A stretch of 64,000 bases of DNA. Origin: a virus (taxonomy: Duplodnaviria > Caudoviricetes). Position numbers and translations under genes: made by a program. The stretch spans positions 64,001-128,000 of the IMG/VR virus record IMGVR_UViG_3300028591_000085. One strand, given 5' to 3'. A model generated the notes under the pieces. The model worked only from the letters and a program-made list of their open reading frames with translations, searched no databases and was not told the origin of the DNA. The number at the start of each line of letters is the position of its first letter. Position 1 is the first letter of the stretch. Shown here piece after piece: positions 4,252-62,092 of this stretch.

Positions 4252-7200
4252 ATGAGTTTAGATTATTTAAATCCAATGGCAAATTTATATAATGAATTTC
4301 TAAAGATATTAAATAATATAGTTATTAAATACACATCTAAAGCTATAGCATGTGAAACTGAAGAGGAACGAAGAGATGCTGAATCATATATGGATGCTAT
4401 AGAAAAGACTGATACATTTGATACATATGCTGAATTCACTGATGATGAATTAGTTGAAGTTGGTATATATGATTATAATATGAGAAAAAAATGTGTTGCG
4501 GATAAATCAAATATTCCGTTTGATAATTATAATGCTGAAACTGGTGAAGGAACTAGTTATAGACATGATTTAGTAGAACTTCGCCGTAAAGAAATAATTG
4601 AAAATTATGTAGAAAAAAATAAGTACTATAGAACATTGAATGGATTACCTGAGCTAAACACTAATCCTGAGTTTTTTGATTATGTCCCGGGTATGATAGC
4701 AGTTCAATGTGGTATACCTTTTGAAGATTTAATATTCGATACTCCGTTTTTGAGAGAATCCGATCTTGAGAGAATGACCTTTGAAGAATTAACAATACCT
4801 GAAGATATGGATGAATTTAATATGTTGCTTAGTAATTATGCTAAATATCGTACTGATTATACAGATTATGCATATAAATATATAATTGAAGATGGAAGGT
4901 TCGTACCTATTGAAAATCTTCATACACGATATGCTGGTAAAACTGTTAAGTTATTAACAAATCTTGGAGATATGGATTTGAACACAGTGACTAATTCAGT
5001 TTATCCTATTCATGAAATTCAAGACCATTATAATAATTTAGATCCTGATTTTCCTGATATGGGAGATCAGATAATGTCTAAATTAGAAGGTATTGGTTTT
5101 ATTGAAAAATTAAAAAAAAATCCTAAAATGTTTGGCATTACTATAAATCCTGACACGGGTGAAGAAATAGAAGACCCTAATAAAATACTTATATACGGAG
5201 GTGCTCTATCTGGTCCCGCTGTGGCTCTTACAGATAAAGCAAAACGGAGAATTTCTAAAAACTCTGGAGTTACTAATTTTTCAAATGTTATAAGAATATC
5301 TGATGATAATAATCCAATAACAGGATATGGGGATAATATCAATATATATTATTCAGTGTCGATTGCTACTACATTTGCTGGTATGAATTTAATTCCCGGT
5401 GACCATATTATGTCAACTGGAATTGGATGGGAAAAAATTTCTATTGAAGAAAAAAGACGTGATGGAGTTAATAGAGAATATCTTAATTTTTTAGGTTCTC
5501 GAAGAATAAGTATAACAAATGCTAGAAAAGCTAAAAATTTTTCAATTCTGCGCTTGGATAAAAATATTGTCAATACGAATATATATGAAGCGTTTATTTC
5601 GATATATGAAGAGTGCAGAGATTATATGACCGTCGTAGTATATCAATATAATTTTTCTGAGTTTATTGCGTATTACGATAATTTCATCGCAATGTGTATC
5701 ATGTTAATGGCTGAGATGCATTTGATAGTACAACAGATACCGTTTGAAATAAGAAGAAATTTCTTTGATCCTTATGCGATACGTATGCTTTATGAAGCAT
5801 ATGATATTCCTTACGATATATATGTCGATATTGAAACTCAGAATATAATTGCTAAAAATTTGAATCTTATAATTCTTCATAAAGCTACTGATAAAGTATT
5901 TTATGATATTTCGCATTTATTAGGATTCAAGAATATCCAAGTATATAAATATTATTTAGCGAAGCAACATCAGTTTGACCCGTGGGGTAATCCGGTATTT
6001 AGTACTAAACAAAAATTCAATAATGATACCGGTAAACTTGAAACGGTTGATGATTATGATTTAATGTATGATATCTATTTTCAAAAAGAAGAACTTAGAG
6101 AAAAAGATTTTATACGAACTTTTAATACATCAGTAAATAAGGTTGATTATCACAGCGTAACATCTGGTGACCCTTATTGGTGGGAAGATCAACATGTTGT
6201 TGATATGAAGAATAAATCTGAGTATAATTTTGTTGAAAGTAAGTATCTTGGACTTACAATGTCATATAAAATGACTGAAGTAATGTTTGAGAATATAGTT
6301 CTTCTCAAAGCATTATTATATTATAGGAAAGAACTTAGAGAGATAAGTGTGAATCTTTCAAGAATTATGTCAGGCGCGTCAGTATCTATCTTTGATGCGA
6401 TAATATTACTTCTTGCTATGATGAGTAGTGTACATCGTCTTAAAGGTGAGATTATTACAGTACCATCTGATATTGTAAATGTATTAGATTATCTCAATAA
6501 TATGGGAGCAAGTAATCATGTTGGAGAATATGATTCATTTGCTTTTGATTTTGATTTCTTTAAAAAAGATATCAATGGTGAAAGTAAATCTGATGCATTA
6601 GTAGAAAGAGTTAAACGCGCTCTTAGTAAAAGAGTGAAAGGTTATATAGTTGATGATACAACGTTTGAAGAAAAACAACAATATATTCTTGATTATTGCA
6701 TGAGGACTGGTGCAACTCCTCCTGTTGATATGAATAATCGCGAAATTATTGAAGAAGATTATTACGAGATATATCAACCTAATTATTACGTATATGACAA
6801 TCCCCCGTATTATACTTTATATTCGGGTGCTATCAAAACATATAAACGTAATACTTATGGTAATGCTAAAACGAAACAAGTTGTTCCTGATAACTTTAAA
6901 AACTTTGATCCTGAAACGATGGTCCACAAATCCGATGTACGTCAAGATATCTTTGATGTTAGATTATACGAATACGTTTCAGAAAACAAAGAGACAGTTG
7001 TTCAAAGGAATGTAGACGCGTTTAAGGTTGAGAATATGCTTAAACGTGGTGAGCTTAAAGAAATCCAAATAGATCATCATGATATTGATGTAGATACATT
7101 TGAAAAATATCTTTCCGTTCTTTCATTTAGTAGTGAGAAAACTCGTGCTGAAAAAATTGAAACATTCAATCTTATATATAGAAATATAAGAAATCTTTAT

Positions 7201-9063
7201 GAATTTATTAATGCTAAGATGGTAGATGAAAATGATCATGAAAGATATGAAGCATTAAAAGCATTTTATAAAGCTGCATTTTATGCAAAGGAAATGCGGA
7301 ATGTTTTCCAGATATCATATGTTGATAGGAATCTTCATACCACGAGATATAGAACAGCAAGAAATATATTCGAGTATCTATATTATCAAAATATTGCATT
7401 GTATTCAGCTATCTTTCATGTTGATTTAGATGAGGAATATAAAAAGTTCTTATCAAATAGGACGTTTCCAACGTATATACGTAGTTATATTCCGTCGGAT
7501 GATAATCCTGACAACTATCCGAATTCAATATTAGTTGTTGATGATAATGACTTAAGTTCTGATAATAATCCTTCAGTAACGCATAAGATTGCACATAGTA
7601 TTGTGGTTGAGCACATTCCATCAATTCGAGTAGGAGAACGTGTTGAAATATTTGCTATAGAAGAGAATGATACTGATGCTAGTATTAAAGAAAGATTCTT
7701 ATCGAAAGTTGATGAAGGTCTTATAGATATTCCTTATGATAATCTCAAAAACACAACTGACGGTGAGAATAAGAATACTAGTTATTTGTCATCATTGCTA
7801 TATTTCTATATCAACCACATAATTTTTGAACTTAAACGAATAATTGTAGATGTAAACTTTGATCATTTATTAAATAATAGTGCAGTTCTATTACAAGATT
7901 TGCTTATCAAATTTATTGAGTATGCAAAATCATTCACTGTAGATTTTGTAGGTTTAGATATTCTATTTGTATGTGATTTTAAACCTGAAAACTATTTAAG
8001 AATGATAGATGAAGTTTCATATATTGAAAAAACTATTGTTCCTAGAGAGACTATGAACTTTAGTTTCTACGACAGAATGTATACATTTGATAGTATGAAT
8101 ATGAATGAAATGTTACGGATGCATGATCGTATAGCCGAACCATGGTTTACCGATCCTGATAATATTACAACATTACCATCTAAACGTGGAATTGTTGGTT
8201 GGTATGATATATCATCACCAATTGAAGTCATTTCTGGAGTAAATAATATTAAAACAGTTCAAGCATCTCAGTTAGTTGATTCGCCAGCATCTACATTAAC
8301 GTTAGCTGCAAATGTACCAGGTTTAACTAACGATCATTTCTATAATTTACAATATGCAAACACTGATTATTTTAGCAATGGTAATAATTATAAAGGATTA
8401 ATACCTAGATTTTCAGGAGATTCTCATTTAGTAATACCTGATAGTTATGAATATACAATATACATGGTTTGCAGGTCAACTGGAATTGCTGACGTAATCG
8501 GTTTCCCAGTTGCTATTGAAAATGTGGCAAGATTCCATTCTGAGCATGGTGATATCATAGGTTCATCAGAATATAGGGAAGGTCCTAGTATACGCTTCTT
8601 GAATACACCATTGGTTGATATATACACCGGTGTAGGTTCGACCAATATGTGTATAAGAGAGTATGTTCCAACTAGTAGTAGAATTAAGAGAGGTAATTAT
8701 TTTATAGATATAATAACTCCTAAGGATGCGAGAGAATGGCATGTTATTGGAGTAGCTCAAACCAAAAATACTGTACGAGTATATATAGATGGTGAGAGAT
8801 GCTTAGACCATACATTTGCTGAAAATGGAGCTTTTGATGATGGAAGTACCGCAGATTTTAATGTTGCTATAATGCCTAATAAGAATTTTGGTCAAGGATT
8901 CCCTGATGTTAAGGATGGATTCTCATATTATTTATGTGATATGCAATTATTAATGGTTGCTATAGCAAATACAAATCATAATAATGCTGAATTAAAAGAA
9001 AATAGTAAATGGATAGCTAATAGATATGGTATTGATATTACACATAATATTCCAAGACCATAA
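4252..9063 (+). CDS. Large virion structural protein, probably baseplate wedge, with LamG-like C-terminus
   Basis: 1603 aa; C-terminal WHVIGV..VRVYIDG; two copies of the tail-sheath repeat module; GACA-N6-TA promoter variant upstream. Confidence 0.55.
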   Translation: MSLDYLNPMANLYNEFLKILNNIVIKYTSKAIACETEEERRDAESYMDAIEKTDTFDTYAEFTDDELVEVGIYDYNMRKKCVADKSNIPFDNYNAETGEGTSYRHDLVELRRKEIIENYVEKNKYYRTLNGLPELNTNPEFFDYVPGMIAVQCGIPFEDLIFDTPFLRESDLERMTFEELTIPEDMDEFNMLLSNYAKYRTDYTDYAYKYIIEDGRFVPIENLHTRYAGKTVKLLTNLGDMDLNTVTNSVYPIHEIQDHYNNLDPDFPDMGDQIMSKLEGIGFIEKLKKNPKMFGITINPDTGEEIEDPNKILIYGGALSGPAVALTDKAKRRISKNSGVTNFSNVIRISDDNNPITGYGDNINIYYSVSIATTFAGMNLIPGDHIMSTGIGWEKISIEEKRRDGVNREYLNFLGSRRISITNARKAKNFSILRLDKNIVNTNIYEAFISIYEECRDYMTVVVYQYNFSEFIAYYDNFIAMCIMLMAEMHLIVQQIPFEIRRNFFDPYAIRMLYEAYDIPYDIYVDIETQNIIAKNLNLIILHKATDKVFYDISHLLGFKNIQVYKYYLAKQHQFDPWGNPVFSTKQKFNNDTGKLETVDDYDLMYDIYFQKEELREKDFIRTFNTSVNKVDYHSVTSGDPYWWEDQHVVDMKNKSEYNFVESKYLGLTMSYKMTEVMFENIVLLKALLYYRKELREISVNLSRIMSGASVSIFDAIILLLAMMSSVHRLKGEIITVPSDIVNVLDYLNNMGASNHVGEYDSFAFDFDFFKKDINGESKSDALVERVKRALSKRVKGYIVDDTTFEEKQQYILDYCMRTGATPPVDMNNREIIEEDYYEIYQPNYYVYDNPPYYTLYSGAIKTYKRNTYGNAKTKQVVPDNFKNFDPETMVHKSDVRQDIFDVRLYEYVSENKETVVQRNVDAFKVENMLKRGELKEIQIDHHDIDVDTFEKYLSVLSFSSEKTRAEKIETFNLIYRNIRNLYEFINAKMVDENDHERYEALKAFYKAAFYAKEMRNVFQISYVDRNLHTTRYRTARNIFEYLYYQNIALYSAIFHVDLDEEYKKFLSNRTFPTYIRSYIPSDDNPDNYPNSILVVDDNDLSSDNNPSVTHKIAHSIVVEHIPSIRVGERVEIFAIEENDTDASIKERFLSKVDEGLIDIPYDNLKNTTDGENKNTSYLSSLLYFYINHIIFELKRIIVDVNFDHLLNNSAVLLQDLLIKFIEYAKSFTVDFVGLDILFVCDFKPENYLRMIDEVSYIEKTIVPRETMNFSFYDRMYTFDSMNMNEMLRMHDRIAEPWFTDPDNITTLPSKRGIVGWYDISSPIEVISGVNNIKTVQASQLVDSPASTLTLAANVPGLTNDHFYNLQYANTDYFSNGNNYKGLIPRFSGDSHLVIPDSYEYTIYMVCRSTGIADVIGFPVAIENVARFHSEHGDIIGSSEYREGPSIRFLNTPLVDIYTGVGSTNMCIREYVPTSSRIKRGNYFIDIITPKDAREWHVIGVAQTKNTVRVYIDGERCLDHTFAENGAFDDGSTADFNVAIMPNKNFGQGFPDVKDGFSYYLCDMQLLMVAIANTNHNNAELKENSKWIANRYGIDITHNIPRP

Positions 9064-36637: not shown

Positions 36638-39600
36638 ATGCCGCAATCTATACAAATTGTACCTAAGTGGTCGTATCCTTACGTAGAGACAATTATAAAC
36701 GATTATTCACAGGTTGTTGACAAGACTCAAGTATATCCTATTGATCCTGTCGTAACTTATGCATTCCCGTTTGTGTCTCCTAAGGGTGTCGATAATACAT
36801 TTGTAAGGAAATACAGTGTAAGTAGATTTGAAGCTACTTTCGGCAAATCAAATTATAAGAAATATGGTCAACCTCTGATGATGCCTTATGCAGTACTTAA
36901 TAATCCTAATGTATATGTATGGGGTATGCGTGTAATGCCTGTTAATGCAGCTTACTCGAATAATCTTATCACTCTTAAGTATAGAATTGATAAGAAATAT
37001 GATGGGGTTGATCCTAGTCAGAGAAAATTCAGAATTAATTTCACACAGAGAGCACTTGAGGATGTTAATACCAATAAGGAATTTATTGACGTCGCATATG
37101 CTATCTATAAGGATCCTAGCAGAACGCATTTACAGGATGACTTCGACAACCCGCCTGTAGTTGGTGAGTATACTCTTACTCAGTACATTTACATGGCTGG
37201 AAAGGATAATCCTGATGCAATTCGTGAAGCTTTAAAGGATCCTGATGTTAAAATGGTAGTTGATGATTCAGTTGAGAATCTTGATGATAGTCAGGTTCAC
37301 TATTCTGATGTTATTGCTACCGTATATTCTAAGAATGAGTTCGAACTTGTTACTTTACAGAGAGAAGTTGATGAATATAGGAAAGAGCATGAAGGTAACA
37401 TGACTCCCGAAAACATCAACAAGGCTCTGTCAGATAAGCTTGACAGGATTGATGAACTCACTCCTATAGTTGAAAAATATCGCCTTAATGTTGATCCTGA
37501 CGAAGTTGAAAATACCCTGGAGGTTCAGGCTATTAGAAACATTGAAGTCGGAGATTATGTAAAGGCATACGATTGGAAGATTGCTCCGTTAATGGGTGTT
37601 AGATCTGCTGGTCGTGGTGTTTATGGCGATAATTATCGTATAAGAATTAGTCCTAATACTAATTATGAGAAAGAGTATGGTATTAAGATGTTTGACTTCC
37701 AGATTCTTTCTATGGAAGAGGGGCTTCAGACTATAGCATCTTATACTGGTGCACTTTCTTCATCCGATAAGTACGAATCTATCACTCTCATTAACGACAT
37801 TCTTGAGAATGCTGATGAAGGTGATGTTCCTGTATACGTATATGTATCAGAAGAGAATCTTAAGGTTGTTTACGATGAGTACGTTTCATTCCTTAAGGAA
37901 CTCCATCCTGATCTTATCGATGAGAGAGATTATAAGCTTGACAGATATACTGAGGCTTTTCGTATCAATAAGGGTCTTGATGTAGCAACTGCTCAGCTCC
38001 AGATGGATAAGATGATTAAGGGTAAGCAGAGAGCTTATTCTACTGATAGAATCGTTATCGATGACGATGAAGCTTCTAAGTATTTTACTCTCGCTACAAT
38101 GAATGATTTCAGAGCTCTTGAAATCGTTGAGGATAATCGTCTGTATTACGATAATACAACGATGGTAAAACTCTCAGAGGTTCAGGGTAAGATTCCTAAT
38201 TACATCCATGTATCTTCTAAGGCAGAAGGTGCTCGCTTAGTAGTAAGCAATGAGTTCCCCGCTCAGAGCTTTAGAGAGAACAAGATGATTAGAATTGGCT
38301 CTATTGATACTTCTGATAGACCGGTTTCTATCAACGATTATGTTGCTAAGACTGGTGTTGGTAACTTTGTAGTTAGAGGCATTGTTAAGTCTACTTTAGA
38401 GATGGTAAACGAGATCAAGAATCTCAATAATTTAATCAACGCTACGCTTGACAAGAATATTGTTGATTTCGATCAGTTTGACCCGCTCTATGCACAAAAA
38501 GTTGCTTCTTCTGCACTTATTCCTTGTATCTCATTCAGCGATGGAGTAACCACTAATGGTTCTATTCCGATATTCGCAGAGACTTCCGGAATTGCTCTGA
38601 AGAAGGGTAGTGATGGTTACTTTGCTGATCCTCGTTATGTTGAAATCCTTGAGGATGGTGACACTAACGAGCCGTCGATTGTATATCCGTATAAATGGAC
38701 TCATCCGGTAACCACAATGATCGCTCCTGAGCGTATCAAGGTTATCAGATATGAGAAGATTGAATATAGTGTTGTAGATACCAAGAATGTCGATGATAAG
38801 GGTAATCCTGTTGAGAATGGTGTATCTTATCTTGAAATTATTGATAACAATGCTGAAGATAGCAAGAAGGGCCAGATTATGCTGGACGAAGCTAAGGCTA
38901 TGTTAGAGTCTCAGGGTGTTGATCCTGATACTGCAGAAGCTGGCAAGTTCCTCAAGAGTACTCCTGTATACTTCGAGCAAGTTACCAAGAATGAGTATAC
39001 GTTATATGATAGAATGTATACTGGTGGTAAGAATAAACTTCAGGTTATTGACAATGATGATACCAAGAACTATGATATCCAGACTCAAGTTGAGAAGCGT
39101 GATGTTATAGAAGGTCTCAATCTTAAATATACTGAATGTTTAGAAACCGATACAGATACTGGAAAACTTTTAATTGTTCAAGCGGATGCTGAAGATTTCA
39201 ACGAGAGATCTCAGATTAAGGAAAATGATGCGACTCTGATTGCTGATTTATCTGCTGATGGTAAGACTCCTACTGTTGGTAAATTCGTTCGCAAGTGCAA
39301 TTATATGAGATGTGACTCTAGGAGAGATGGTGCTATTGAAGTAATCTCAGAAGAGACTACAGATACAGTTCCTGCTAATAAGATAAAAGAGAATGCTCCC
39401 GGTTTAAGGAGAGACATTCCTGATATCAAGGTTGGTGAACATGTACTTAGAGTTATGAAATCAAGTATCTATGTTGATGACGAAGATCCGTTATATGTAA
39501 TCAAGAAAGTTAACAGTGTACCTGTTCACTATAGAGAGTATACCATTGTATCTGCTGATACTGCTGGTGCTCTTAAGGTAGTTGCTGATGCTGATTTCGT

Positions 39601-41422
39601 TGAAGGAGACGCCACTACCGTTAAGATTAGTGATGTTAATGGATCACATAATAAGCCCAATGGTGTTATCGCTGCTACTCAGAAGTACGTTATCTCTACT
39701 TCTGGTACTACTGGTGCTCTTGAAGTAGTTGCTGCTACTGTTAAGAAGTACGTTATGAGTACTTCTGGTACTACTGGTGCACTTGAAGTAATTAAAGATA
39801 AAGAGTACGCTATGAGTACTTCTGGTACTACTGGTGCTCTTGAAGTAGTTGCCGCTTCTACTATCGATCCTATTGATAGTACTACTCAGATTAAGGAAGA
39901 TGATTCCAATCTGGTCGCAGATCTTCCCTCTGTTCAGGTAGGCGATTATGTAATTCTGCAAGATGTAACGCCGACTTCTACCCAGATTAAAGTTAACAAC
40001 GCAATTCTGAAAGAAGATCTTCCTTCTGTTCAGGTAGGCGATTATGTAATTCAGGAAGACGTTGAAAACATCGTTGACAGCACTACTCAGATTAGGGAAG
40101 ACAATTCCAATCTGTTAGCAGATCTTCCTTCTGTTCAGGTAGGCGATTATGTAATTCAGGCAGAAGTTGCAACGTATGTAACTGTTGAGAATAAGACTGT
40201 TCCTATGTACAAGAAGTATTCTATTGATGAAGAAGAACTTGAGTTCGACGGAAGCAGTGTAGATGACTTACTTGACATATTTAGCAAGGTTGGTACAACA
40301 TATCCTGCTAAGAACTTTACTAAGCCTGCTGTATATATTCCTGTAAATCAGACCGATACGATCTACCTCTATCCTGATGAGGATACTGGTAAGATGCCTG
40401 TCGATGATGATGAGAAGGGTCCTGTTATAAATGTTGATGGTAGTATCAATACTTCCAGGGTTGCCTATACTACTGATGCAATTCAGTGGACACTCCAGCA
40501 GGAAATTGATGAGTGCTTAATTAATGCATTCAACGGCACTTATGACAGAAAGATTCTTTCACCTAGAAGAATCCCTGTTGATGCTTGGTTTGATGCTAAC
40601 TACAGCTTTGCTGTTAAGCAGGCACTCTGTGAACTCGTTACTGCAAGAAATGATGCACCTGTATTCCTTGATACTGGTATTGAGGATAAGGTATATTCAA
40701 CTGAGAGAATGAATGCTCTCATCGATCAGTATAAAGAGTTCACGAATGATACTGCTAAGTACAATACTAAGCTCATCAGTAAGAACCTTCAGCACTATAA
40801 GATTAGAGAAGAAGGTACTATGAAGAGAGTAGATGTATCCATCACTTACTTCTTAGCTAAGAAGTTTGCTGAGCATGTACTTAATTATGGTACTCACTTC
40901 CCGTTCGTTAAGGGTAAGTGCGAGTTAAGTGGTCACCTCCGTGATACGCTTCAGCCTGCTCTTGAAGATTTCGAAGCTGAGAAGAAGGAGTTGTTATACA
41001 ATAACCACTTCAACTACTTCGAGACTCGTGCGGATAATATATTCCAGAGAGCTTCGCAGAGCACATCACAAGCTGAGCTTAGTGACCTTTCTGAGGAGAA
41101 TAATATCTTTACTCTCTATAATCTTAAGAGAATTCTTGAGAATGATATTCATGATAGTCTGTATGATTTTGCTGACGCAAACTCCAGACAGACATTCACT
41201 GCATTCGAGACAGCGAAGTTTGCTCCTTGGATTGGAACGAAAGTTCTGTCACTTAGCATTCACTTCGATGTAAGCGAATGGGAGTTCGATCATTCGATAC
41301 TCCACTGCTATGTAGCCGTAGTATTCCGTGGTCTCCAGAAGAGAGCTATTCTTGAGATTGATATCAACAAGAGAGTTTACGATGGCGAGACTGAGTCTGC
41401 TGCTGGTAATGTAGCTATCTAA
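36638..41422 (+). CDS. Contractile tail sheath protein with a large repeat-containing insertion
   Basis: N-terminal SPKG..FEATFG, RSAGRGVYGDNY, C-terminal FDANY..ARND..LSEENN; followed by the tube gene; high-expression codons. Confidence 0.85.
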   Translation: MPQSIQIVPKWSYPYVETIINDYSQVVDKTQVYPIDPVVTYAFPFVSPKGVDNTFVRKYSVSRFEATFGKSNYKKYGQPLMMPYAVLNNPNVYVWGMRVMPVNAAYSNNLITLKYRIDKKYDGVDPSQRKFRINFTQRALEDVNTNKEFIDVAYAIYKDPSRTHLQDDFDNPPVVGEYTLTQYIYMAGKDNPDAIREALKDPDVKMVVDDSVENLDDSQVHYSDVIATVYSKNEFELVTLQREVDEYRKEHEGNMTPENINKALSDKLDRIDELTPIVEKYRLNVDPDEVENTLEVQAIRNIEVGDYVKAYDWKIAPLMGVRSAGRGVYGDNYRIRISPNTNYEKEYGIKMFDFQILSMEEGLQTIASYTGALSSSDKYESITLINDILENADEGDVPVYVYVSEENLKVVYDEYVSFLKELHPDLIDERDYKLDRYTEAFRINKGLDVATAQLQMDKMIKGKQRAYSTDRIVIDDDEASKYFTLATMNDFRALEIVEDNRLYYDNTTMVKLSEVQGKIPNYIHVSSKAEGARLVVSNEFPAQSFRENKMIRIGSIDTSDRPVSINDYVAKTGVGNFVVRGIVKSTLEMVNEIKNLNNLINATLDKNIVDFDQFDPLYAQKVASSALIPCISFSDGVTTNGSIPIFAETSGIALKKGSDGYFADPRYVEILEDGDTNEPSIVYPYKWTHPVTTMIAPERIKVIRYEKIEYSVVDTKNVDDKGNPVENGVSYLEIIDNNAEDSKKGQIMLDEAKAMLESQGVDPDTAEAGKFLKSTPVYFEQVTKNEYTLYDRMYTGGKNKLQVIDNDDTKNYDIQTQVEKRDVIEGLNLKYTECLETDTDTGKLLIVQADAEDFNERSQIKENDATLIADLSADGKTPTVGKFVRKCNYMRCDSRRDGAIEVISEETTDTVPANKIKENAPGLRRDIPDIKVGEHVLRVMKSSIYVDDEDPLYVIKKVNSVPVHYREYTIVSADTAGALKVVADADFVEGDATTVKISDVNGSHNKPNGVIAATQKYVISTSGTTGALEVVAATVKKYVMSTSGTTGALEVIKDKEYAMSTSGTTGALEVVAASTIDPIDSTTQIKEDDSNLVADLPSVQVGDYVILQDVTPTSTQIKVNNAILKEDLPSVQVGDYVIQEDVENIVDSTTQIREDNSNLLADLPSVQVGDYVIQAEVATYVTVENKTVPMYKKYSIDEEELEFDGSSVDDLLDIFSKVGTTYPAKNFTKPAVYIPVNQTDTIYLYPDEDTGKMPVDDDEKGPVINVDGSINTSRVAYTTDAIQWTLQQEIDECLINAFNGTYDRKILSPRRIPVDAWFDANYSFAVKQALCELVTARNDAPVFLDTGIEDKVYSTERMNALIDQYKEFTNDTAKYNTKLISKNLQHYKIREEGTMKRVDVSITYFLAKKFAEHVLNYGTHFPFVKGKCELSGHLRDTLQPALEDFEAEKKELLYNNHFNYFETRADNIFQRASQSTSQAELSDLSEENNIFTLYNLKRILENDIHDSLYDFADANSRQTFTAFETAKFAPWIGTKVLSLSIHFDVSEWEFDHSILHCYVAVVFRGLQKRAILEIDINKRVYDGETESAAGNVAI
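39680..40174 (+). repeat. Nested A-A-A-B-B-B repeat array
   Basis: Three STSGTTGALEV half-modules followed by three TQI..DLPSVQVGDYVI half-modules with near-identical DNA. Confidence 0.9.
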
Positions 41423-41445: not shown

Positions 41446-42381
41446 ATGGCTAGCACAGAGAGCAATGGAATTAACCATAATGGTTCGATAATGCAGGGCG
41501 GACCCGCCATGAAGAATTTTAACGATGCTGAGATTACTAAGTATGCGTTATTCCTTGGTGGTACCAACGTTGCACATGATGTACTTGAGAAGTATGATCC
41601 GCTTAAGACTGGCTATGGACGTTTGTTCATGGTTCGTAAGCCGATCTTCGTAGATACGTTATTCAAGCAAAAGGACGGCGGAACTAATTTGATGGATGTG
41701 TTTAAGCACATTCTTGAGTATGGTAACACCGCTGTTTCAGGTCTTAACGATGTTAACGTTGAATTCGAGTCTCTCAAGGGTGGTTATGTAGGTAAATCTT
41801 TTGAGATTCCTACGTATGCCCAGGATAATACTAACTCGTTTAGTGTTAAAGTATATGAGTTCTCAGGTTCTCCGATTCGTGAAGTACTTCACACTTGGAT
41901 CAATGGTACAACTGACCTGCTCACAGGTTTAACAACCTACCATGGTTTAGTTAACAGTGATCTTCAGTCTAAACAGTCTAATCAGACGGCAGAGTTTATC
42001 TATGTTGCTACTGACAATACTGGTGAGAATGTCGAGTATGCTTGCTTCTTAGCTAACTGCTTCCCGAAGCAGATTAATACCGATGTATTTAACTATGAGT
42101 CAGGTTCTCACGGACTTGTTGAGACAACTATTGAGTTTACTTGCACTAAGTACGAGTCTATTCATATTAATAAGGTAGCTTGTGCACTTCTCGAAAGATA
42201 TAAGATGCTTGCCAACTCACTTAACTTCTACAGTGGTATCACTTATCAAGAGATTGGTAATGGTAAGTATTATAACGTAGAGAATGGACAGATTGTAGAT
42301 CGTGGTACAGGTAGCGGAGAATCAAAAGACCTGAAGAAGATTTCAGCTTCTGAAGTTAAACAGGATCATACCTCTGAGTAA
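41446..42381 (+). CDS. Tail tube protein
   Basis: 311 aa directly after the sheath; YEFSGSPI..WI, FLANCFPK, IEFTC. Confidence 0.75.
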   Translation: MASTESNGINHNGSIMQGGPAMKNFNDAEITKYALFLGGTNVAHDVLEKYDPLKTGYGRLFMVRKPIFVDTLFKQKDGGTNLMDVFKHILEYGNTAVSGLNDVNVEFESLKGGYVGKSFEIPTYAQDNTNSFSVKVYEFSGSPIREVLHTWINGTTDLLTGLTTYHGLVNSDLQSKQSNQTAEFIYVATDNTGENVEYACFLANCFPKQINTDVFNYESGSHGLVETTIEFTCTKYESIHINKVACALLERYKMLANSLNFYSGITYQEIGNGKYYNVENGQIVDRGTGSGESKDLKKISASEVKQDHTSE

Positions 42382-61231: not shown

Positions 61232-62092
61232 ATGTCTCAGATTAAATATTTAGATACTGCTGGAACTCAAACTCTTATTAATGAAATTAAGTCGAGATTA
61301 AGTACTAAGATTACTAGATATGCTACAATGCCGTCTGCTACTGTAAACGATGTTGGTGATATCGTACAGTATATTGGTACTACCAATTCTAATTTTACTA
61401 AAGGTGATTTTTATCTCGGTTCTACCGGAGCGTCTGTTGAAGTATCTACATATGTAGCTTCTTCTAATGGAATAACCGGTGCTCTTGAAGTTGTTGCAGC
61501 TGATGCTGATCCCTTTGACGAGGAAACTCAGATTAAAGTTGATACTGCTAAGCTCGTATCAGATCTTCCCGAGGTTCAGGTTGGAGACTATGTTAAACTT
61601 ACAACTACAACAGTACCTACATATAATTGGGTACAAGTATCTTACAGCAAGGATGAGATTAATGAACTTATTGGTAGAGCTGGTCACTTCGCCGCAGTTA
61701 ATAGCTTGCCTACTACCGATATTGCTACTAACATTATCTATCTCGTACCTAAGAAAAAAACAGTTTCGGGTTATACTGCGACTGACGGATCTTTTTATGT
61801 TCCTAGTGGCAATACTTATATCCATTATGATGCTACGGGTGCTGTTATTACAGGTACAGTAGATGATGAAGCAGTAGCTGCTGCTATTGAAGATGAGACC
61901 TATACTGCAGGTACTAAAGAAGTCCTTAATCCTCAGGATAATAATACTAAAGACGAATATATTAATATTGATGGTACTGTCAATGGTTGGGAAAAAATTG
62001 GCGAAACATTGATGGATCTTTCTAACTATGTTCAATTTGATGATTTAGTTGCAATTACATCAAATGAACTTGATGCTATGTGGGATGTATAA
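61232..62092 (+). CDS. Fibre/decoration protein carrying one copy of the sheath repeat module
   Basis: KYLDTAG, GDIVQYIG, LPT..IIYLVP..WEKIG; GALEVVA..DLPEVQVGDYV. Confidence 0.65.
   Translation: MSQIKYLDTAGTQTLINEIKSRLSTKITRYATMPSATVNDVGDIVQYIGTTNSNFTKGDFYLGSTGASVEVSTYVASSNGITGALEVVAADADPFDEETQIKVDTAKLVSDLPEVQVGDYVKLTTTTVPTYNWVQVSYSKDEINELIGRAGHFAAVNSLPTTDIATNIIYLVPKKKTVSGYTATDGSFYVPSGNTYIHYDATGAVITGTVDDEAVAAAIEDETYTAGTKEVLNPQDNNTKDEYINIDGTVNGWEKIGETLMDLSNYVQFDDLVAITSNELDAMWDV

What the first reader, a model, noticed from the sequence alone, without database searches (positions are those of the whole stretch)
39530..40195. Russian-doll protein module nested inside itself four levels deep in the tail sheath
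Seen: the sheath has three N-halves (Y..STSGTTGALEV) followed by three C-halves (TQI..DLPSVQVGDYVI), i.e. AAABBB rather than tandem ABABAB. An intact A-B unit is visible in the gene at 61232. The order parses as unit 3 (39800-39964) inside the loop of unit 2 (39743-40063), inside unit 1 (39680-40174), inside an older unit (REYTIV..GALKVVAD..VIAAT / YVTVE). Each insert is in frame and flanked by a short duplication (AAGAT..AAGAT; GTT..GTT; Ala-Thr..Ala-Thr), though these could be chance. Inference: a ~50-aa domain with adjacent termini repeatedly inserts into surface loops, building a telescoping or branched protrusion on every sheath subunit. I do not know of a described case of such recursive self-insertion in a virion protein.
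Basis: partly seen in the sequence, partly recalled or inferred. Interest (0 to 1): 0.88.

Follow-up and report, generated by a model that had tools for sequence, protein, structure and literature searches.

The report
Self-nested display module in phage sheath
A giant phage's tail-sheath protein carries an undescribed 50-residue surface module whose copies sit one inside another like Russian dolls; the order is real and varies between related phages, but similar self-nesting is already known in cyanobacterial RNA polymerase.

Summary
In the 1594-aa sheath gene (36638-41422, +), three N-halves (A, a beta-hairpin) are followed by three C-halves (B, strand-helix-strand) of a ~50-aa module. The module has no Pfam, PDB-sequence or clear fold match.

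The nested reading is well supported:
- AlphaFold2 folds residues 960-1195 at pLDDT 95.8.
- The first strand of each A and the last strand of the mirror-position B have matching lengths (11/11, 7/7, 8/8, 6/6).
- Orthologous sheaths carry one unit at this site, or the order A-A-[A-B]-[A-B]-B-B.
- Other sheaths and a small-protein family carry 0, 1, 2, 3 or 4 nested units.
- 25 of 28 nested arrays are balanced.

The proposed mechanism, a mobile domain that inserts itself, is only partly supported. One innermost unit is shared in both halves by two different proteins, which points to gain of a whole cassette. But relatives with orders A3B2 and A1B2, and a chimeric A3B3, show that the A and B arrays also expand and contract separately by unequal recombination. 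The flanking short duplications are at chance level.

Recursive self-nesting is already described for the SBHM domains of cyanobacterial RNA polymerase Si3. I could not read model coordinates, so the pairing is inferred indirectly.

Verdict: a new variant of a known kind, of moderate to high interest.

The parts
36638..41422 (+). Tail sheath gene (1594 aa, P0001). The conserved core is formed by the N- and C-terminal parts. Residues about 480-1190 hold the accreted modules.
   Evidence: phrog_19666 matches aa 1289-1578. tblastn finds the annotated jumbo-phage sheaths. In relatives the next gene carries Phage_TTP_14.
39536..39679 (+). Older, diverged unit (level 1): A half, strand 3 and helix, then a long loop that receives the inserted block.
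   Evidence: The profile hit stops at position 38 of 56. AF2 strands are E2-12, E20-23 and E35-37, with helix H38-42.
39680..39742 (+). A1, the N-half of unit 1 (level 2).
   Evidence: Half-profile hit E 6.7e-7. AF2 strands E55-61 and E69-72.
39743..39799 (+). A2, the N-half of unit 2 (level 3).
   Evidence: Half-profile hit E 1.7e-5. AF2 strands E75-82 and E90-93.
39800..39964 (+). Unit 3 (level 4): contiguous A3, linker and B1, the innermost complete module.
   Evidence: Full-profile hit E 2.4e-21. Folded alone it reaches pLDDT 94.5, with the same secondary-structure elements as inside the array.
39965..40063 (+). B2, the C-half that closes unit 2.
   Evidence: Half-profile hit E 8e-8. The AF2 last strand E177-184 has 8 residues, as does the first strand of A2.
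40064..40174 (+). B3, the C-half that closes unit 1.
   Evidence: Half-profile hit E 7e-10. The AF2 last strand E212-218 has 7 residues, as does the first strand of A1.
40175..40207 (+). Closing strand of the older unit.
   Evidence: AF2 strand E221-231 has 11 residues, as does the first strand E2-12. It is conserved after the single unit in P0005, P0006 and P0007.
39146..39451 (+). Two older contiguous A-B units in tandem, upstream in the same gene.
   Evidence: Profile hits E 1.8e-8 and 8.6e-18.
38084..38350 (+). Two more diverged units in the sheath gene.
   Evidence: Profile hits E 1.4e-5 and 1.1e-6.
61448..61600 (+). Intact A-B unit in the 286-aa ORF 61232-62092.
   Evidence: Profile hit E 1.5e-22. 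The translation is shown.
6838..6978 (+). Diverged A-B unit in the 1603-aa ORF 4252-9063.
   Evidence: Profile hits E 2.4e-7 and E 6e-11.

Best explanation
The region encodes a real nested array of one small module on the outer, non-core part of a jumbo-phage tail sheath. I infer that this part lies away from the tube.

The module has about 50 residues: strand 1, turn, strand 2 (the A half), a 12-residue linker, then strand 3, a short helix and strand 4 (the B half). Strand 1 pairs antiparallel with strand 4, so the two ends of a module lie side by side. A whole module can therefore sit in a loop of another.

In this sheath, unit 3 is contiguous and lies in the strand 2-strand 3 linker of unit 2. 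Unit 2 lies in the same linker of unit 1. Unit 1 lies in the helix-strand 4 loop of an older unit. That gives four domains, each closed by the mirror-position B half.

At the DNA level the array behaves as two linked tandem arrays. Depth changes in two ways. One is gain or loss of a whole A-B cassette at the innermost linker. The other is unequal recombination inside the A array and the B array separately, with selection keeping the two counts equal because an unpaired half cannot form a domain.

The likely role, by inference, is a surface decoration or weak adhesion structure repeated on every sheath subunit.
For: Structure:
- AF2 of aa 960-1195 with a 65-row alignment gives mean pLDDT 95.8 and pTM 0.72.
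- Relative to the single-unit model, strand 1 of A2 is longer by 2 residues at its N end, and strand 4 of B2 is longer by 2 at its C end. A1 and B3 are each longer by 1. A3 and B1 are unchanged. The older first strand and the final strand are both 11 residues long. Only the mirror pairing matches all four.

Grammar:
- Orthologous sheaths carry one unit (P0005, P0006, P0007) or the order A-A-[A-B]-[A-B]-B-B (P0004) at this site.
- Other sheaths carry n=2, 3 or 4 (P0016, P0101-P0109, P0008).
- A small-protein family carries n=0, 1, 2 or 3.
- By my count from those calls, 25 nested arrays are balanced and 3 are not.
- In every array the break lies at the same place in the linker. In the window, the tail of A1 and the head of B3 add up to 11 residues, the length of the uninterrupted A3-B1 linker.

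Cassette gain: the innermost unit of sheath P0105 matches the innermost unit of small protein P0024 in both halves. The A halves are 79% identical and the B halves 71%, against 17-32% to the other halves of that protein.

Separate change of the half-arrays: P0090, P0094, P0098 and P0102.
Against: - I could not read the model's coordinates or its PAE. The A-B pairing is inferred from DSSP strand lengths and chain topology, not from contacts.
- AF2 was given nested relatives in its alignment, and there is no experimental structure.
- Two of the three unbalanced variants are singletons on contigs of about 1 kb and could be collapsed assemblies. That would weaken the case for separate expansion.
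- Within the window, unit 2 differs from units 1 and 3 in both halves. A single simple history by either route does not explain this.
- No function has been tested.
Confidence: 0.72

Rival explanations
1. Pure recursive self-insertion. A mobile A-B cassette copies itself into the linker of an existing copy, once per level. No other process changes the depth.
For: The sheath pair P0105 and P0009, and the small-protein pair P0024 and P0013, each differ by one whole innermost unit of a distinct type in both halves. P0019 and P0095 have near-identical flanks and differ by exactly one 53-aa inner unit. The module is present in five genes of the 203-kb genome.
Against: P0102 gained an exact copy of the outer A together with a B that is a chimera of B2 and B1. 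That matches no existing unit. P0090 has an extra A only, on three contigs. The flanking repeats are at chance level. No transposase-like or homing function is associated with the module.
Confidence: 0.15
2. The nested fold is real, but it was built only by separate tandem duplications of the A half and the B half (slippage or unequal crossover). Selection then restored equal numbers. No cassette ever moved.
For: Both halves form DNA tandem arrays here and in relatives. Unbalanced intermediates exist. P0102 shows both half-gains.
Against: The innermost units of P0105 and P0024 are unlike their neighbouring halves yet like each other across different proteins. The module sits in unrelated host proteins and sites, so whole units do move between genes. 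The first step, from one unit to two A halves, has no repeat to recombine on.
Confidence: 0.2
3. There is no nesting. The A hairpins form their own sheet and the B halves their own repeat, so that A and B are independent structural repeats. Alternatively they pair serially (A1 with B1, and so on).
For: The sequence alone cannot exclude this. Unbalanced variants exist.
Against: A and B always occur together as one contiguous unit in about 80 proteins. 25 of 28 arrays are balanced. The order in P0004 has no natural serial parse. The mirrored strand lengths in the AF2 model fit only the nested pairing. The contiguous A3-B1 folds alone at pLDDT 94.5.
Confidence: 0.07

Closest known systems
SBHM (sandwich-barrel hybrid motif) domains of the Si3 insertion in cyanobacterial RNA polymerase beta-prime
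   Same: Copies of one homologous small beta-rich domain are inserted one into another over several levels. Up to six levels are reported, with some domains built from distant chain segments. Together they make an elongated surface appendage on a large machine (PMC13114784, PMC10895346).
   Different: The fold and family differ, and the host is a cellular enzyme rather than a virion. That nesting is ancient and fixed. Here the DNA copies are still 77-92% identical, the depth varies between close relatives (1, 3 or 4 units at one site), and the same module nests independently in several proteins.
Additional domains of multi-domain (type 3) phage tail sheaths, such as T4 gp18, phage 812 and jumbo phages
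   Same: The conserved core is made of the N- and C-terminal parts and is interrupted by accreted outer domains. Some of these are formed by an outgoing and a returning chain segment. Their proposed roles are adhesion or tail stability (PMC9230969).
   Different: Those inserts are mostly Ig-like or helical domains that are unrelated to each other. Here a single 50-aa module is reused recursively.
Ig-like and other decoration domains of phage structural proteins
   Same: These are small beta domains spread by exchange among virion genes, displayed on the surface and variable in copy number. This rests on established knowledge and on the discussion in PMC9230969.
   Different: The fold here is not Ig-like. 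It has four strands and one short helix. Those domains are usually arranged in tandem rather than nested.
NusA N-terminal domain
   Same: This is the best, though weak, structural resemblance for the single unit. Foldseek gives TM 0.50 by the query, E about 1, over 46 columns. Atlas rows align 45-48 residues at rmsd 2.5-3.6. One unit gives a Pfam NusA_N hit at E 0.035.
   Different: Nothing reaches significance. VIA-align Z is at most 2.4. There is no functional or contextual link.

Membership tests
Contractile tail sheath (PBS1/AR9/phiR1-37-type jumbo-phage sheath) | Conserved C-terminal sheath core domain | tested here: met
   phrog_19666 'tail sheath' matches aa 1289-1578 at E 9e-35. tblastn finds the annotated sheaths of 21 phage records at 23-28% identity.
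Contractile tail sheath (PBS1/AR9/phiR1-37-type jumbo-phage sheath) | Gene followed by the tail tube gene | tested here: met
   The next ORF, 41446-42381, hits virion-protein phrogs and weakly the tail tube phrog_45. In relatives the next gene carries PF23806 Phage_TTP_14.
Nested (recursive) insertion of a homologous domain, as in Si3 SBHM | A domain formed from two chain segments that flank a complete copy of the same domain | tested here: inconclusive
   The AF2 model has pLDDT 95.8 and mirrored strand lengths. Balanced orders are seen in relatives. Coordinates and contacts could not be read.
Nested (recursive) insertion of a homologous domain, as in Si3 SBHM | Relatives that lack exactly the inner copy or copies, with colinear flanks | tested here: met
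   P0005, P0006 and P0007 carry one unit at the same site. P0019 and P0095 differ by one inner unit. P0009 and P0105 likewise.
SBHM domain family | Sequence or fold match to SBHM | tested here: inconclusive
   No Pfam hit. No SBHM chain appears among the fold-search rows.
Mobile element with target-site duplication | Flanking direct repeats beyond chance | tested here: not met
   The AAGAT and GTT flanks exist, but 38% of random window pairs in the same gene give an in-frame 5-nt flank match.
Simple tandem protein repeat | Whole units follow head to tail (A-B-A-B) | tested here: not met
   At 39680-40174 the order is three A halves and then three B halves. True tandem arrays of the same module do exist upstream (39146-39451) and in P0010, P0011 and P0012.

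The most novel reading that the evidence does not exclude
The A-B module is a previously unnamed display domain whose geometry (adjacent ends, a tolerant linker) lets it nest in itself without limit. On this reading, jumbo phages actively vary nesting depth and cassette type on the sheath, fibres and baseplate to tune surface bristles for host or mucus adhesion. The array would then be a natural, still-evolving system in which one can watch recursive domain insertion happen step by step, unbalanced intermediates included.
Probability: 0.3. Interest if true: 0.78.

Novelty: new variant of a known kind. Interest (0 to 1): 0.6.

Why it matters
Domain insertion is a main route to complex proteins, but known deep self-nestings such as the Si3 SBHMs are ancient and frozen. 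Here the same phenomenon is young:
- The DNA repeats are still 77-92% identical.
- Close relatives differ in depth (0 to 4 units).
- Apparent intermediates with one half too many are found in metagenomes.

This makes the mutational paths testable, whether whole-cassette gain or paired expansion of the half-arrays, and likewise the selection for balanced architectures.

The work also defines a rare module family with no Pfam match. Only 82 cluster representatives were found among 1.84 billion. The family decorates sheaths and other proteins in these phage genomes, so it is a candidate adhesion or stabilising element on giant-phage tails.

Tried and rejected
- **Model coordinates.** They were not available to scripts, so I could not compute contacts or PAE.
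- **Range versus aligned length in fold searches.** I tried this as a proxy for discontinuous domains. Only one weak Atlas row was suggestive (70 aligned residues spread over residues 1-236, TM 0.23).
- **Fold searches.** I ran the four-domain model against the PDB representatives, the ESM Atlas and BFVD, and the single-unit model against the PDB representatives and the full PDB by Foldseek. None gave a significant match.
- **Sequence searches of known families.** Pfam on the whole protein and on 11 units and a PDB sequence search found nothing significant.
- **Related phages.** Megablast of the gene against GenBank phages found nothing, and the search for related loci in viral contigs found no relative.
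- **Automated half-profile grammar.** With short HMMs this was too insensitive for diverged halves and flagged false imbalances. I re-read these by eye.
- **DNA identity of the P0005 unit to the window halves.** It favours A1 as the orthologous A (0.77 against 0.67-0.69) but does not discriminate among the B halves.
- **Target-site duplications.** Rejected as chance.
- **Complex prediction.** I did not run it, because any A half can pair with any B half in trans. The result would not discriminate between pairings within one chain.

Full report
**What is there.** The window is part of a 203-kb virus record with 32% G+C. ORF 36638-41422 (+) encodes a 1594-aa protein.
- Its last ~290 residues match the tail-sheath family phrog_19666 at E 9e-35.
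- By tblastn they also match the annotated sheaths of PBS1, AR9, phiR1-37 and Staphylococcus jumbo phages at 23-28% identity.
- The next gene is tube-like. In relatives it carries Phage_TTP_14.

The gene is therefore a sheath with a very large non-core part.

**Check of the observation.** The repeat finder and TRF show three copies of a ~60-nt unit at 39671-39850. Three copies of a ~100-nt unit follow at 39873-40167. I aligned 11 contiguous units (A1) and later built a profile from 91 units. On the six-frame translation of the window:
- The profile matches one full unit at 39803-39961, E 2e-21.
- Two upstream pieces match only the first 20 profile positions (A1, A2).
- Two downstream pieces match only positions 16/21-52 (B2, B3).
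- An older copy at 39536-39646 breaks off at position 38 of 56, just before the block.
- The intact unit in ORF 61232-62092 is confirmed, E 1.5e-22.

The three-A-then-three-B order is real and far beyond chance.

**What the module is.** It matches no Pfam family and no PDB sequence. A profile search of 1.84 billion cluster representatives found only 82 proteins at E<=1e-3. By eye they include sheaths, fibre-like proteins and small proteins.

Folded alone with a 66-row alignment, the unit gives pLDDT 94.5. Its elements are strand 3-8, strand 16-19, a 12-residue linker, strand 32-34, helix 38-43 and strand 52-57. Fold searches gave nothing significant. The best were the NusA N-terminal domain (TM 0.50, E about 1) and CDC48-N (Z 2.4). 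I treat it as an undescribed small domain.

**Is it nested?** AF2 of aa 960-1195 with a 65-row alignment gives mean pLDDT 95.8 and pTM 0.72. I could not obtain coordinates, so I used the DSSP string.
- Every A gives two strands, and every B gives strand, helix, strand, as in the single unit.
- The first strands of the older unit, A1, A2 and A3 are 11, 7, 8 and 6 residues long.
- The last strands of B1, B2, B3 and the final segment are 6, 8, 7 and 11 residues long.
- The extensions relative to the single unit lie at the N end of strand 1 and the C end of strand 4. That is expected if strand 1 of a unit pairs antiparallel with strand 4 of the mirror-position half.
- Only the nested pairing matches all four lengths. 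A serial pairing matches none.
- The connectors between successive A halves are 2 residues long, and those between successive B halves 6-7. Around a child domain whose ends are adjacent, these add up to about the native 12-residue linker.

**Comparative evidence.**
- Orthologous sheaths that are 79-98% identical in the first 700 aa carry different arrays at exactly this site. P0005, P0006 and P0007 carry one unit. P0002 and P0003 carry the same three. P0004 carries A-A-[A-B]-[A-B]-B-B.
- A second sheath clade has arrays of depth 2 or 3 at two other sites (P0016, P0101-P0109, P0009). P0008 has depth 4.
- A small-protein family with conserved flanks has 0 units (P0100), 1 (P0019, P0020), 2 (seven clusters) or 3 (P0096, P0024).
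- In all arrays the break falls at the same place in the linker.
- In the window, the tail of A1 plus the head of B3 is 11 residues, the length of the intact A3-B1 linker.
- By my reading, 25 nested arrays are balanced and 3 are not.

**How depth changes.** Two routes are visible.
1. Whole-cassette gain.
   - Sheath P0105 equals its orthologue P0009 plus a new innermost unit.
   - Both halves of that unit are unlike their neighbours (17-32% identity).
   - Both are 79% and 71% identical to the innermost unit of the unrelated small protein P0024.
   - P0019 and P0095 differ by exactly one inner 53-aa unit.
2. Separate change of the half-arrays.
   - P0090 has an extra A made by a crossover between A1 and A2. 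It is a 78-nt tandem repeat with 92% matches, seen on three contigs.
   - P0094 has lost one A and P0098 one B. Both are singletons on ~1-kb contigs, so assembly collapse is possible.
   - P0102 reached depth 3 with an exact copy of the outer A and a chimeric B, on a 255-kb contig.

The AAGAT, GTT and Ala-Thr flanks are at chance level.

For the window's own array I cannot tell the route. Units 1 and 3 resemble each other in both halves and unit 2 differs.

**Comparison with what is known.**
- Sheath cores interrupted by accreted outer domains, some formed by outgoing and returning chain segments, are described in PMC9230969.
- Recursive nesting of one homologous domain is described for the SBHMs of cyanobacterial RNA polymerase Si3, up to six levels (PMC13114784, PMC10895346).

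The phenomenon is therefore not categorically new. Three things are new:
- the module family itself;
- its occurrence in virion proteins, with five genes of this genome carrying it;
- the youth and polymorphism of the nesting, with apparent intermediates.

**Function.** By inference only, this is an exposed decoration or adhesion array on every sheath subunit. This follows the role proposed for the additional domains of other sheaths.

**Verdict.** The nested architecture is likely (about 0.85). The exclusive self-insertion mechanism is not supported. The target-site duplications are rejected. The finding is a new variant of a known kind, with interest 0.6.

Noticed in passing
G000:C1:14060-15271 (+) and G000:C1:23861-24016 (-), outside the window: Three more copies of the module lie in a 1277-aa ORF (two copies) and a 396-aa ORF of the same 203-kb genome. 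Five genes therefore carry it in all.
   Followed up: partly
window 61232-62092: In the 286-aa protein the unit sits between two short motifs that resemble the flanks of the small-protein family (P0013, P0019, P0100). That family has members with 0, 1, 2 or 3 units. The host hairpin may be homologous.
   Followed up: no
window 39644-39961 (-): A 105-aa ORF lies on the opposite strand inside the A array. It is most likely a by-product of the repeat composition.
   Followed up: no
window 38084-39451: Four older units lie as two tandem pairs upstream in the sheath gene. Another first-stage note claims a wider tree of about 11 nested copies. I confirmed only the profile hits, not the nesting there.
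   Followed up: partly
L004:1992-2458 (P0102 locus, 255-kb contig): This is a second jumbo-phage sheath with an A array (period 69 nt, 2.9 copies) directly followed by a B array (period 87 nt, 2.8 copies). The first two A copies are identical in protein sequence.
   Followed up: yes
P0017, P0043, P0046, P0080: These long repetitive proteins matched the profile only through many short partial stretches. P0017 was read by eye and is a different repeat family; the other three were not inspected.
   Followed up: no
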